From Escherichia coli (lineage in GTDB: Bacteria; Pseudomonadota; Gammaproteobacteria; Enterobacterales; Enterobacteriaceae), in assembly GCF_045037415.1 (NCBI RefSeq), contig NZ_CP173438.1: a DNA stretch of 64,000 nt; one strand, 5' to 3'. Numbering within the stretch: the stretch's first letter is position 1; every line of letters begins with the position of its first letter. Under the pieces are notes generated by a model that was given only the letters and a program-made list of their open reading frames with translations, was not told the origin of the DNA and ran no database searches. The position numbers and the translations under genes are program-made. Shown here in pieces: positions 17,333-20,836 of the stretch.

Positions 17333-17665
17333 TTGAGCTTAACGCCAAATGCGCTCGACACCACGACGAGTAAATACCGATTCCTGAATGACGACTTCAT
17401 TCTCTGTTCCTTCATTCACTCTACCGCCTGGCGAGGAATATTCGCCTTCGGTGTTTTTCCGGACCACGTAAAAATCGATGTCGCCAGGCTGTTTCCCGCC
17501 AGTGGTCATTTAGTACAAGTGCTACCGGAATATTACCAGCCAGCGAATGTCTGGGCCGTTTATGTTTCAAAGCTGTCGACGTCAGCGAAAGTGCGGATAA
17601 CGGTAGAATTTTTACGCCAGTATTTTGCCGAGCACTACCCGAATTTTTCACTGGAGCATGCCTGA
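17333..17665 (+). pseudogene. 3'-terminal fragment of a LysR-family regulator gene (dmlR/yeaT-like remnant)
   Basis: 110-codon ORF whose C-terminal two-thirds ([60 protein letters not shown]) has the layout of a LysR effector-domain C-terminus; frame closed by TGA at 17324-17326; no N-terminal HTH domain; sits where K-12 has dmlR upstream of leuE. Confidence 0.4.
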
Positions 17666-19295: not shown

Positions 19296-19544
19296 ATGGG
19301 CATTCTGTCATGGATTATTTTTGGGCTTATTGCCGGTATTCTGGCGAAGTGGATCATGCCAGGTAAAGATGGTGGTGGATTCTTTATGACTATCCTGCTG
19401 GGGATAGTCGGTGCCGTAGTCGGCGGATGGATCAGCACGCTGTTTGGCTTTGGTAAAGTCGATGGCTTCAATTTTGGCAGCTTCGTGGTTGCCGTTATTG
19501 GTGCGATTGTTGTGCTATTTATCTACAGGAAGATTAAAAGTTAA
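19296..19544 (+). CDS. yeaQ: GlsB/YeaQ/YmgE-family small membrane protein
   Basis: 82-aa ORF MGILSWIIFGLIAGILAKWIMPGKDGGGFFMTILLGIVGAVVGGWISTLFG...; AGGAAA upstream. Confidence 0.93.
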   Translation: MGILSWIIFGLIAGILAKWIMPGKDGGGFFMTILLGIVGAVVGGWISTLFGFGKVDGFNFGSFVVAVIGAIVVLFIYRKIKS

Positions 19545-19557
19545 CGCGTAAATTGCA

Positions 19558-19592
19558 CAAAGGCTGCACACAGGCAGCCTTTGCTATTTTTT
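19558..19592 (+). terminator. rho-independent terminator of yeaQ
   Basis: AAAGGCTGC-ACACAG-GCAGCCTTT followed by GCTATTTTTT, 14 bp after yeaQ stop; lies between convergent yeaQ and yoaJ. Confidence 0.6.
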
Positions 19593-19602
19593 AGATGTGA
19601 CG

Positions 19603-19677
19603 TTACCACCATCCCAGCTCAGTGCCGAGTACGACAATAATCGCCACACCCATCATAATAATCGTTGTTTTTTTCAT
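19603..19677 (-). CDS. yoaJ: small membrane protein YoaJ, 24 aa
   Basis: Not in ORF track. Minus strand reads ATGAAAAAAACAACGATTATTATGATGGGTGTGGCGATTATTGTCGTACTCGGCACTGAGCTGGGATGGTGGTAA = MKKTTIIMMGVAIIVVLGTELGWW. Confidence 0.8.
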   Translation of the reverse strand: MKKTTIIMMGVAIIVVLGTELGWW

Positions 19678-19679
19678 CT

Positions 19680-19778
19680 TTATGCTCCCGGGGCAGCATA
19701 GCCGCCAATAAAAAACCATGCTAAAAATACGACCGCTGTAATAAAGATTACAACCGGAAAAATAATACCGATTCGCAT
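19680..19778 (-). CDS. yoaK: small membrane protein YoaK, 32 aa
   Basis: Not in ORF track. Minus strand translates MRIGIIFPVVIFITAVVFLAWFFIGGYAAPGA; its stop lies 2 bp upstream of the yoaJ start codon. Confidence 0.8.
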   Translation of the reverse strand: MRIGIIFPVVIFITAVVFLAWFFIGGYAAPGA

Positions 19779-19810: not shown

Positions 19811-20836
19811 TCAGGAATGTAGCGCTGAATGCGTGACAAAAGGTGTTTTCTGTTTATGTTTTTTCTCCTGATACATCGCGATATCGGCAGCATGCAGGGC
19901 ACTGTCTGCATCGGTCGTTTCAGGATCGACTTCTACTATGCCAAGACTGGCACCAGGATAATACAAATCAACATCACCTAAGTGATATTCTCCGCGTATT
20001 TGTTGTTGAATACGTTCTCGCAGCGACGAAATATCCGCATTCTCGTTGTTCAGTGAAACAACCAAAAACTCATCACCGCCGAGACGACCAATAACTTCGC
20101 CATTTTGCTGGAGCGTATTAAGGCGCTCGCCAACCTGAATGAGAAACAGATCGCCACTATTATGACCAAAACGATCATTGATTAATTTGAAGTTATCCAG
20201 ATCGATAAACGCGATCATTATCTTATGGTTAAGATGCCGGGCGAGAGAAAACAGCGTCGTCAGATTTTCAAAAATCGCCCGCCGATTCGGTAGCCCGGTT
20301 AACGAGTCGGTATACGATTGCGCAATCAGCGCAGCATTAGCTTCGCGCAGCTGTTCAACCAGTGCCTCTTTTTGAATATATTGTGCAATCAGTCCGGCGA
20401 ATAACTGTAAGACCTGTTCCGCGCGTTCACTCCACTGGCGCTTCTCACTGCTGGCGGCGCAAAGCGTGCCATAGAATGATCCATCCGGTAAGTGAATTGG
20501 CGTGCTCAGAAATGTGGTGATGCCAAGATTGCGTGCCGCAATACAGTCGCCCCAACGGTCGGGGACTTCATCGCTGAAAAAACAGTTTTCATCAATGGCG
20601 CGTTTGCATAACGAGTAATCCCACGAGACGGTAAAATTCTCCGGGATGTGCATTTTCTGGCTATTACGGGCAAACATTATATGCTGCAGGCGCGCTTCGA
20701 CATCCACTTTGGTCAGGTAGGTTGACTCCATATCAGTGACCATTTCCAGCATCTCCAGAAGCTGTCGAACCAGACTTTCCAGTGACTGTTCTTTGGCAAG
20801 GGATTGCGAGACGCGGGCGATAATCTGATCTGACAC
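19811..20836 (-). CDS. dgcP: diguanylate cyclase with N-terminal GAF domain
   Basis: ORF 19811-20965; K-12-length product (341 aa) starts at GTG 20836 (SDQIIARVSQSLAKEQSLESL...); intact RLGGDEFLVVS GGDEF motif. Confidence 0.9.
   Translation of the reverse strand: MSDQIIARVSQSLAKEQSLESLVRQLLEMLEMVTDMESTYLTKVDVEARLQHIMFARNSQKMHIPENFTVSWDYSLCKRAIDENCFFSDEVPDRWGDCIAARNLGITTFLSTPIHLPDGSFYGTLCAASSEKRQWSERAEQVLQLFAGLIAQYIQKEALVEQLREANAALIAQSYTDSLTGLPNRRAIFENLTTLFSLARHLNHKIMIAFIDLDNFKLINDRFGHNSGDLFLIQVGERLNTLQQNGEVIGRLGGDEFLVVSLNNENADISSLRERIQQQIRGEYHLGDVDLYYPGASLGIVEVDPETTDADSALHAADIAMYQEKKHKQKTPFVTHSALHS

What the first reader, a model, noticed from the sequence alone, without database searches (positions are those of the whole stretch)
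19603..19778. Tandem small hydrophobic proteins yoaK (32 aa) and yoaJ (24 aa) between yeaQ and dgcP
Two back-to-back minus-strand minigenes, invisible in the ORF track, encode single-helix peptides (MRIGIIFPVVIFITAVVFLAWFFIGGYAAPGA and MKKTTIIMMGVAIIVVLGTELGWW). The yoaK stop is 2 bp from the yoaJ start, suggesting translational coupling. The yeaQ terminator hairpin (19558-19592) sits immediately 3' of yoaJ and may act bidirectionally.
Basis: partly seen in the sequence, partly recalled or inferred. Interest (0 to 1): 0.25.

Follow-up and report, generated by a model that had tools for sequence, protein, structure and literature searches.

The report
Known small membrane proteins YoaK and YoaJ
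These are the already-annotated, experimentally detected E. coli minigenes yoaK (32 aa) and yoaJ (24 aa), two tightly linked single-helix membrane peptides downstream of the diguanylate cyclase gene dgcP; the finding is correct but ordinary, and their function remains unknown.

Summary
Both are already annotated in RefSeq. This stretch is present in at least 5,402 of 5,426 complete E. coli genomes, and both genes were labelled in the 11 full-length records I inspected. Both peptides match curated NCBIfam models, and the literature reports them as tagged, membrane-associated proteins and RseP substrates of unknown function.

My own comparative test supports real coding. Across 24 orthologous loci in 5+ genera, dN/dS is 0.05 for yoaK and 0.16 for yoaJ, against 1.1-3.6 in the off-frame controls.

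The stop/start junction stays between -4 and +2 nt in every locus that has both genes, and a Shine-Dalgarno for yoaJ lies inside the last yoaK codons. This fits translational coupling but does not prove it. The hairpin shared with convergent yeaQ is conserved and flanked symmetrically in most genera. In this window the U-tract on the yoaJ side is weak.

Seen in passing:
- Salmonella keeps yoaK-yoaJ without dgcP.
- Divergent YoaK relatives sit directly after the cI repressor gene in lambdoid phages and prophages. HK106, mEp234 and mEp506 carry the ORF unannotated.
- One relative follows a non-orthologous GGDEF gene.

Verdict: already known, low interest.

The parts
19811..20836 (-). dgcP (yeaP), a GAF-GGDEF diguanylate cyclase; the upstream gene of the operon
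   Evidence: RefSeq annotation; Pfam GGDEF 140 bits plus GAF; RNA-seq operon yeaP-yoaK-yoaJ reported in PMC4620388
19782..19787 (-). GGTGAT Shine-Dalgarno-like motif for yoaK, 3 nt before the ATG
   Evidence: Sequence; duplex with the anti-SD is -2.8 kcal/mol; a GGTGA/GGTGG/GGGGA motif is conserved at this position in orthologs; E. coli/Salmonella homology begins here
19680..19778 (-). yoaK, a 32-aa single-pass small membrane protein (stop codon included)
   Evidence: NF033821 69.1 bits against a cut-off of 32; dN/dS 0.048 against 2.9/3.6 off-frame; 30 of 32 third positions variable; KD 2.79 over residues 6-24
19685..19689 (-). GGGAG Shine-Dalgarno for yoaJ, embedded in the yoaK Pro-Gly-Ala codons, 7 nt before the ATG
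   Evidence: duplex -6.6 kcal/mol here and -5.6 to -8.6 in most orthologs (Salmonella -2.5)
19603..19677 (-). yoaJ, a 24-aa single-pass small membrane protein (stop codon included)
   Evidence: NF011343 60.4 bits against a cut-off of 54; dN/dS 0.160 against 1.1/1.9 off-frame; the upstream in-frame extension is closed by a stop in the Enterobacter-type loci, so ATG 19677 is the start
19558..19593 (.). GC-rich hairpin (19558-19583) shared by convergent yeaQ and yoaJ, with a T-run on the + strand (19584-19593); a candidate bidirectional intrinsic terminator
   Evidence: Scan; fold -18 to -21 kcal/mol on either strand; conserved, with 3 compensatory pairs across 18 sequences; symmetric A5/T5 flanks in Enterobacter and Lelliottia
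19296..19544 (+). yeaQ, a convergent GlsB/YeaQ/YmgE-family membrane protein gene
   Evidence: Pfam Transgly_assoc; convergent in nearly all orthologous loci

Best explanation
This is the known E. coli dgcP-yoaK-yoaJ locus.

Transcription. The two minigenes are transcribed with dgcP, as reported from RNA-seq. DgcP is reported to be under vegetative sigma-70 control. The transcript probably ends at the hairpin shared with convergent yeaQ (inferred).

Translation. yoaK initiates at ATG 19778 behind a weak GGUGAU SD. Its stop lies 2 nt before the yoaJ ATG, and yoaJ's GGGAG SD sits inside the last yoaK codons. yoaJ synthesis is therefore geometrically tied to yoaK translation. I put about 0.6 on coupling contributing measurably. 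Independent initiation at yoaJ's own SD is the alternative.

Membrane insertion. Both peptides insert as single N-in/C-out helices in the inner membrane. This is experimentally confirmed for YoaJ according to the literature. For YoaK it is predicted from Arg2 and the hydrophobic core.

Function. Function is unknown. My best guess (about 0.5, inferred by analogy to characterised small membrane proteins) is that they act as accessory or modulating helices of a larger membrane protein, with turnover partly through the S2P protease RseP.
For: - Identity: 100% match to E. coli with both genes annotated; NCBIfam equivalog hits above cut-off.
- Real coding: both ORFs are intact in all Escherichia, Citrobacter, Enterobacter, Lelliottia, Pseudenterobacter, Klebsiella and Salmonella loci examined. 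dN/dS is 0.048 and 0.160, against 1.1 or more off-frame.
- Coupling geometry: the junction is +2, 0, -1 or -4 nt in all 26 loci with both genes, and the SD lies inside the yoaK 3' codons.
- Operon: a 32-nt dgcP-yoaK spacer with no terminator call, plus the RNA-seq operon in PMC4620388.
- Expression and localisation from papers: chromosomally tagged YoaK was detected (bioRxiv 511675). YoaJ is integral to the membrane, its type II topology is confirmed, and it co-precipitates with RseP (PMC4597795). Both are cleaved by purified RseP as 'class II' substrates (PMC10470546). YoaJ is induced by diamide (cited in PMC12542507).
- Regulation: DgcP is sigma-70-controlled (PMC5635695).
- Hydropathy and charge placement.
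Against: - No function or phenotype is known. A yeaJ-yeaV deletion that removes both genes left growth rate and competitive fitness identical between the two strains compared, in M9-glucose (PMC9769844).
- Coupling is unproven. The yoaJ SD is stronger than yoaK's, and the yoaJ RBS is not sequestered in significant structure (z = -1.0 and -1.6), so independent initiation is possible.
- The pair is not obligate. yoaJ occurs alone in Kosakonia and Enterobacter sp. EA-1. yoaK-like genes occur alone in Buttiauxella and in all phage copies.
- The pair does not depend on dgcP: Salmonella lacks dgcP.
- RseP cleavage depends on the tag used, and was not seen with chromosomal RseP for either protein.
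- The minus-strand U-tract after the hairpin is weak in this window.
Confidence: 0.9

Rival explanations
1. yoaJ is translated independently of yoaK. The tight junction simply reflects compaction, and the two peptides act separately.
For: yoaJ has its own good SD (-6.6 kcal/mol), and no significant structure masks its RBS. yoaJ exists without yoaK, with a strong private SD, in Kosakonia and Enterobacter sp. EA-1. yoaK-like genes exist without yoaJ.
Against: Four different junction solutions (+2, 0, -1, -4 nt) all keep stop and start nearly touching across at least 7 genera. In Salmonella the SD has decayed to -2.5 kcal/mol while the 2-nt junction is retained, which argues for reliance on upstream ribosomes.
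Confidence: 0.35
2. YoaK, with or without YoaJ, is functionally linked to c-di-GMP signalling, for example by tethering or modulating the adjacent diguanylate cyclase at the membrane.
For: yoaK lies directly after dgcP in Escherichia, Citrobacter, Enterobacter, Lelliottia and Klebsiella. In Buttiauxella a yoaK-like gene lies 11 nt after a non-orthologous MASE5-GGDEF cyclase, 32% identical over the GGDEF domain only. L033 and L032 are also convergent with further GGDEF genes.
Against: Salmonella keeps yoaK-yoaJ with no dgcP. The phage copies follow cI, not a cyclase. DgcP is a soluble GAF-GGDEF protein. There are only two independent cyclase contexts, and I know of no interaction data.
Confidence: 0.12
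3. YoaK belongs to a phage-associated family of small membrane proteins expressed in lysogens (for example for superinfection exclusion or membrane protection). The chromosomal yoaK would be a domesticated copy, or else the source of the phage copies.
For: YoaK-like ORFs lie 3-104 nt after the CI-type repressor gene in phages HK106, mEp234 and mEp506, in a Klebsiella phage, and in Enterobacter, Klebsiella, Serratia and E. coli prophages. This is the slot that lambda uses for rexAB. The phage copies are under purifying selection (dN/dS 0.16 against 0.84 and 1.9 off-frame).
Against: No functional data. No PHROG or PADLOC family matches. Phage and chromosomal copies are diverged, and the direction of transfer is unknown. 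Two prophage copies have ATT or ATA at the called start.
Confidence: 0.12
4. The two ORFs are chance open frames in the dgcP 3' UTR, or are type I toxin-like peptides controlled by an antisense RNA.
For: Short ORFs are abundant by chance: 283 of 20-40 aa in the window. Hydrophobic peptides resemble type I toxins.
Against: Frame-specific purifying selection. Curated family matches. The proteins have been detected. There is no Rfam hit at this locus and no convincing antisense promoter: 3 promoter-like sites against 4.4 expected. The papers group them with ordinary small membrane proteins, not with the Hok toxins.
Confidence: 0.02

Closest known systems
YoaK family small membrane protein (NCBIfam NF033821; Pfam PF28021 in precomputed annotations)
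   Same: Full-length match, 32/32 positions, 69 bits. The exact sequence sits in a 141-member cluster named YoaK across Enterobacteriaceae.
   Different: Nothing; it is the type member. The family is narrow: 51 clusters at E<=1e-3 among 1.84 billion representatives, many of them frameshifted calls.
Protein YoaJ (NCBIfam NF011343 / PRK14760)
   Same: Full-length 24/24 match, 60.4 bits against a cut-off of 54. The exact sequence is named YOAJ_ECOLI.
   Different: Nothing; it is the type member.
Characterised E. coli small inner-membrane regulators (AcrZ, MgrB, CydX, MgtS and similar)
   Same: Fewer than 50 aa, a single TM helix, discovered by the same comparative-genomics and tagging approach, and screened together as RseP substrates.
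   Different: Those have defined partners (AcrB, PhoQ, cytochrome bd, MgtA; from my own knowledge). No partner is known for YoaK or YoaJ beyond the YoaJ-RseP co-precipitation.
Lambda rexA/rexB and other lysogen-expressed genes downstream of cI
   Same: Applies to the phage branch of the YoaK family only. Same position, after cI and before PL, downstream of an annotated PRM-like promoter in HK106. It encodes a membrane protein, as rexB does.
   Different: No sequence similarity was tested or claimed. It has one 32-aa helix, whereas RexB is a multi-pass protein (my own knowledge). Function is untested. The chromosomal yoaK in this window is not in a prophage.

Membership tests
YoaK family (NF033821) | Score at or above the curated cut-off over the full-length model | tested here: met
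   69.1 bits against a cut-off of 32, positions 1-32 of 32
YoaK family (NF033821) | A protein of about 32 aa with one hydrophobic helix and the conserved FP...W-F...GGY motif | tested here: met
   21 invariant columns, including F7 P8 W21 F22 G25 G26 Y27, in 17 distinct orthologs; KD 2.79 over residues 6-24
YoaK family (NF033821) | Protein is made and is membrane-associated | not testable with these tools
Protein YoaJ (NF011343) | Score at or above the curated cut-off over the full-length model | tested here: met
   60.4 bits against a cut-off of 54, positions 1-24 of 24
Protein YoaJ (NF011343) | Type II (N-in/C-out) single-pass topology | not testable with these tools
   Consistent with K2 K3 at the N-terminus and a hydrophobic 4-22 stretch. 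Experimental confirmation is attributed to Fontaine 2011 in PMC4597795; the primary paper is not held.
Translationally coupled gene pair | The upstream gene's stop within a few nt of, or overlapping, the downstream gene's start | tested here: met
   +2 nt here; +2, 0, -1 or -4 nt in all 26 loci with both genes
Translationally coupled gene pair | The downstream RBS lies inside the upstream coding sequence | tested here: met
   GGGAG at 19689-19685, within the yoaK Pro-Gly-Ala codons; conserved as GGGAG, GGGGG, GGAG or GGTGG
Translationally coupled gene pair | Downstream translation depends on upstream translation | not testable with these tools
   Needs yoaK start or stop mutants with a YoaJ readout. 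No RBS-masking structure was found.
Bidirectional intrinsic terminator | A single GC-rich hairpin between convergent genes | tested here: met
   10-11 bp stem at 19558-19583, about -18 kcal/mol on both strands; conserved, with 3 compensatory pairs
Bidirectional intrinsic terminator | A U-tract following the hairpin on both strands | tested here: inconclusive
   The + strand has CTATTTTTTA and was called. The - strand has UGCAAUUUACG and was not called. Orthologs in Enterobacter, Lelliottia and some Escherichia have clear T-runs on the yoaJ side.
Bidirectional intrinsic terminator | Transcript 3' ends map to both sides in vivo | not testable with these tools
   Needs Term-seq or SEnd-seq data
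Type I toxin-antitoxin peptide | A cis- or trans-encoded antisense RNA, and toxicity | tested here: not met
   No Rfam family at this locus at E<=1. Promoter-like sites are not above expectation. Toxicity was not tested.

The most novel reading that the evidence does not exclude
The YoaK family is not just an enterobacterial chromosomal orphan. It also has a phage-borne branch placed immediately after the cI repressor gene, in the lysogen-expressed rexAB slot, in lambdoid phages and prophages of Escherichia, Klebsiella, Enterobacter and Serratia. Chromosomal copies recur next to non-orthologous diguanylate cyclase genes. If the 32-aa helix is a lysogen-expressed membrane effector (for example phage exclusion, or modulation of a conserved membrane partner), then the long-uncharacterised E. 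coli YoaK would gain a testable function.
Probability: 0.15. Interest if true: 0.5.

Novelty: already known. Interest (0 to 1): 0.12.

Why it matters
For the window itself it matters little. The analysis adds three things:

- An independent, quantitative confirmation that both are under strong purifying selection.
- A comparative argument that the stop/start junction is itself selected, since four different solutions all fall within -4 to +2 nt.
- Leads for the still-unknown function. The pair is independent of dgcP (Salmonella). yoaK and yoaJ can each occur alone. A YoaK branch rides in the cI operon of lambdoid phages, where it is unannotated in the reference phage records.

Tried and rejected
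- **Homolog search:** I used a YoaK profile against the 1.84-billion representative library instead. YoaJ (24 aa) could not be searched that way.
- **Primary papers:** Hemm 2008 and 2010, Fontaine 2011 and the EcoSal review are not held. Experimental claims therefore come from papers that cite them.
- **Ribosome profiling:** the supplements are not held, and no other paper with start-site data for these genes was found.
- **Family libraries:** the local Pfam copy gave no significant hit. PHROGs and PADLOC gave none. Rfam gave nothing at this locus.
- **Internal promoter for yoaK-yoaJ:** only one weak site, whose -10 overlaps the yoaK ATG, and the total number of sites is below the shuffle expectation. 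Rejected.
- **RBS masking as the coupling mechanism:** no significant structure. Rejected.
- **Longer yoaJ start** (the 38-aa ORF from ATG 19719): rejected, because the extension is closed by an in-frame stop in the Enterobacter-type loci.
- **YoaK-YoaJ fusion proteins in the database** (P0018, P0037 and others): these are frameshifted calls, not real fusions.
- **yoaJ-internal hairpin (19593-19652):** z = -4.4 here, but not conserved outside the close E. coli lineage. I do not count it as a functional element.
- **Structure prediction:** not run. A single 24-32 aa helix would be uninformative, and the tool cannot model heteromers.

Full report
**Observation.** On the minus strand, an ATG at 19778 opens a 32-codon frame that ends with TAA at 19682-19680 (MRIGIIFPVVIFITAVVFLAWFFIGGYAAPGA). 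Two bases later, an ATG at 19677 opens a 24-codon frame ending at 19603 (MKKTTIIMMGVAIIVVLGTELGWW). The hairpin CAAAGGCTGC/GCAGCCTTTG lies at 19558-19583, with a T-run after it on the plus strand. Short ORFs are not evidence in themselves, because the window has 283 ATG-ORFs of 20-40 aa. Only one of those reaches a GRAVY of 1.5, and YoaK scores 1.88.

**Identity.** The 901-bp region is 100% identical to an E. coli chromosome, and it is present at 80% coverage or more in 5,402 of 5,426 complete E. coli genomes. In the 11 full-length records I inspected, RefSeq annotates yeaQ, yoaJ ('protein YoaJ'), yoaK ('YoaK family small membrane protein') and dgcP in this order. Both peptides match curated NCBIfam equivalog models over their full length and above the cut-off: NF033821 at 69.1 bits against 32, and NF011343 at 60.4 against 54. 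Both exact sequences are in named clusters. The finding is therefore already known.

**What the literature says.**
- The primary discovery papers are not held, so I rely on the papers that cite them.
- YoaK was detected with a chromosomal tag and is described as uncharacterised (bioRxiv 511675).
- YoaJ is integral to the membrane, with type II topology 'confirmed experimentally'. It co-precipitates with RseP, but HA-MBP-YoaJ is not cleaved (PMC4597795).
- Both are 'class II' RseP substrates: cleaved by the purified enzyme, but inconsistently in vivo (PMC10470546).
- YoaJ is reported to be induced by diamide (cited in PMC12542507).
- RNA-seq identified a yeaP-yoaK-yoaJ operon (PMC4620388).
- DgcP is under vegetative sigma-70 control and is present in all growth phases (PMC5635695).
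- A deletion spanning yeaJ-yeaV left growth rate and competitive fitness identical between the two strains compared, and the functions of yoaK and yoaJ 'remain unknown' (PMC9769844).

**Independent comparative test.** I fetched orthologous loci using DgcP as the query, so that the presence of the minigenes was not a selection criterion.
- Both ORFs are intact, at constant lengths of 32 and 24 codons, in Escherichia (5 species), Citrobacter, Enterobacter, Lelliottia and Pseudenterobacter.
- Pooled Nei-Gojobori estimates over 24 sequences give dN/dS of 0.048 for yoaK and 0.160 for yoaJ. The two shifted frames give 2.9/3.6 and 1.1/1.9 respectively.
- In yoaK, 30 of 32 third positions vary, against 11 first and 8 second positions.
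- The longer 38-aa reading of yoaJ is excluded, because the Enterobacter-type loci have a stop directly in frame before the start.

**Translational coupling.**
- The yoaK stop and yoaJ start are +2 nt apart in Escherichia, Citrobacter and Salmonella.
- They are 0 nt apart in Enterobacter, Lelliottia and Pseudenterobacter, -1 in Klebsiella, and -4 (ATGA) in one further relative.
- A purine-rich SD (GGGAG, GGGGG, GGAG or GGTGG) sits inside the conserved Pro-Gly-Ala codons of yoaK. Its anti-SD duplex energy is -5.6 to -8.6 kcal/mol, and -2.5 in Salmonella.
- yoaK's own SD is weaker here (GGUGAU, -2.8).
- I found no significant mRNA structure masking the yoaJ RBS (z = -1.0 and -1.6).
- The geometry is that of a coupled pair, and the junction looks selected. 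Actual dependence of yoaJ on yoaK translation remains an inference, which I rate at about 0.6.

**Terminator.**
- A single hairpin occupies the 47-64 nt between the yoaJ and yeaQ stops in nearly all loci.
- Its AAAGGC...GCCTTT core is invariant, and three stem pairs show compensatory changes.
- In Enterobacter, Lelliottia and some Escherichia it is flanked by A5 on one side and T5-7 on the other, so it reads as a canonical terminator in both directions.
- In this window the yeaQ-side tail is strong (CTATTTTTTA).
- The yoaJ-side tail is UGCAAUUUACG, which the scan did not accept.
- Bidirectional use is plausible, and probably less efficient on the yoaJ side in this strain.

**Context beyond the finding.**
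- *Salmonella.* It has yoaK and yoaJ with the same 2-nt junction between yoaF and yeaQ, but no dgcP. Nucleotide homology with E. coli begins exactly at the yoaK SD (window 19787). The pair is therefore a self-contained module.
- *yoaJ alone.* It occurs in Kosakonia and in Enterobacter sp. EA-1, with a private SD.
- *Family size.* A YoaK profile finds only 51 clusters among 1.84 billion representatives, and many of those are frameshifted calls.
- *Next to cyclases.* One genuinely divergent member lies after a dgcP homolog, with yoaJ (L033). Another lies 11 nt after a non-orthologous MASE5-GGDEF cyclase in Buttiauxella, without yoaJ.
- *In phages.* Unexpectedly, others lie immediately after CI-type repressor genes in lambdoid prophages of E. 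coli, Enterobacter, Klebsiella and Serratia. The same is true in the isolated phages HK106, mEp234 and mEp506, where the ORF is unannotated. It also holds in a Klebsiella phage, where the ORF is mislabelled 'CI transcriptional regulator'.
- *HK106 layout.* The ORF sits between cI, which has an annotated PRM-like promoter, and a hicAB-like pair, upstream of PL. This is the slot lambda uses for rexAB.
- *Selection.* The phage copies are under purifying selection: dN/dS 0.16, against 0.84 and 1.9 off-frame.
- *Databases.* They match no PHROG or PADLOC family.
- *Frequency.* The HK106-type copy is in 6 of 5,426 complete E. coli genomes, where PGAP labels it YoaK family.

**Mechanism, with status.**
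- Shown by sequence and comparison: two conserved coding minigenes, an embedded SD, a tight junction, a shared conserved hairpin, and single hydrophobic helices with N-terminal positive charges.
- Shown in the literature: the proteins are made, YoaJ is a type II membrane protein, the genes are co-transcribed with dgcP, and purified RseP cleaves both.
- Inferred: translational coupling, bidirectional termination, N-in/C-out topology for YoaK, and a role as accessory helices of a larger membrane protein.

Because yoaK and yoaJ each occur alone in some lineages, an obligate heterodimer is unlikely.

**Verdict.** The phage-borne YoaK branch and the recurrent cyclase adjacency are modest new leads to a function, not established findings.

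Noticed in passing
L034:2501-2599 (phage HK106, NC_019768.1 30464-30559); also mEp234 and mEp506: A 32-codon YoaK-family ORF (MRIGIVFPILVFIVAMGFMAWFIIDGYATPSG) lies between cI and the hicAB-like genes, in the slot lambda uses for rexAB. It is unannotated in the phage GenBank records. The same arrangement, directly after a CI-type repressor, is seen in prophages of E. coli (L031), Enterobacter (L036, L037), Klebsiella (L038) and Serratia (L030, L039, L040). The copies are under purifying selection, and no PHROG or PADLOC family matches.
   Followed up: partly
L035:1980-2099 (Klebsiella phage ST974-OXA48phi18.2, MK448237.1): The CDS annotated 'CI transcriptional regulator' (39 aa) actually contains a YoaK-like small membrane protein (MRIGIAFPASVFIIAVAFLAWFILGGYATPGT). 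The real repressor is probably the upstream gene labelled 'putative repressor Cro'.
   Followed up: partly
L028:2805-3238 (Salmonella enterica): Salmonella has yoaK-yoaJ with the same 2-nt junction but no dgcP. Homology with E. coli begins exactly at the yoaK Shine-Dalgarno. The 190-nt yoaF-yoaK spacer matches nothing in the E. coli dgcP region and gave no sigma-70 promoter hit. The yoaJ SD is degraded to GGGCG.
   Followed up: partly
L032:1383-2635 (Buttiauxella brennerae): A YoaK-like gene lies 11 nt after a membrane-bound MASE5-GGDEF cyclase that is not a DgcP ortholog (32% identity, GGDEF domain only). It is convergent with a further dCache-GGDEF gene, and no yoaJ is present. This is a second, independent adjacency between YoaK and a diguanylate cyclase.
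   Followed up: partly
window 19593-19652 (minus strand): The 3' half of yoaJ plus 10 nt beyond its stop folds into a 26-bp hairpin (-27.6 kcal/mol, z = -4.4, 0 of 200 shuffles as stable). It is strong only in this E. coli lineage (z = -3.8 in the closest relative), weaker in other Escherichia, and absent in other genera. It is probably not a conserved element.
   Followed up: yes
L036:2501 and L038:2501: The Enterobacter and Klebsiella prophage YoaK-like genes are called with ATT and ATA at the start position, and have no in-frame ATG, GTG or TTG. Either initiation is non-canonical or these copies are decaying.
   Followed up: no
L023 (Kosakonia cowanii) and L027 (Enterobacter sp. EA-1), downstream of the dgcP homolog: yoaJ is present without yoaK, with a strong private SD (GAGGAG / GAAGGAG). 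Symbiopectobacterium (L024) has neither gene.
   Followed up: partly
L034:2420-2500 (HK106): Between lambda-type cI and the YoaK-like ORF lie short stretches that resemble the 3' ends of other repressor genes: 'cggattaagggtgatgccgagtaac', compare L036 and L038; and 'caggaagcatgggtag', compare L031. This suggests the small gene moves together with a repressor 3' end by recombination.
   Followed up: no
P0018, P0037, P0017, P0019 and similar (protein database entries): Apparent 52-63 aa 'YoaK-YoaJ fusions' and long C-terminal extensions are frameshifted gene calls across the tight junction, not real fusion proteins.
   Followed up: yes
window ~17342-17665: RefSeq marks two adjacent pseudogene fragments (tartrate dehydrogenase and a LysR-family regulator, both partial) between rnd and leuE in the identical E. 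coli record. Coordinates are converted from L001 643-966.
   Followed up: no
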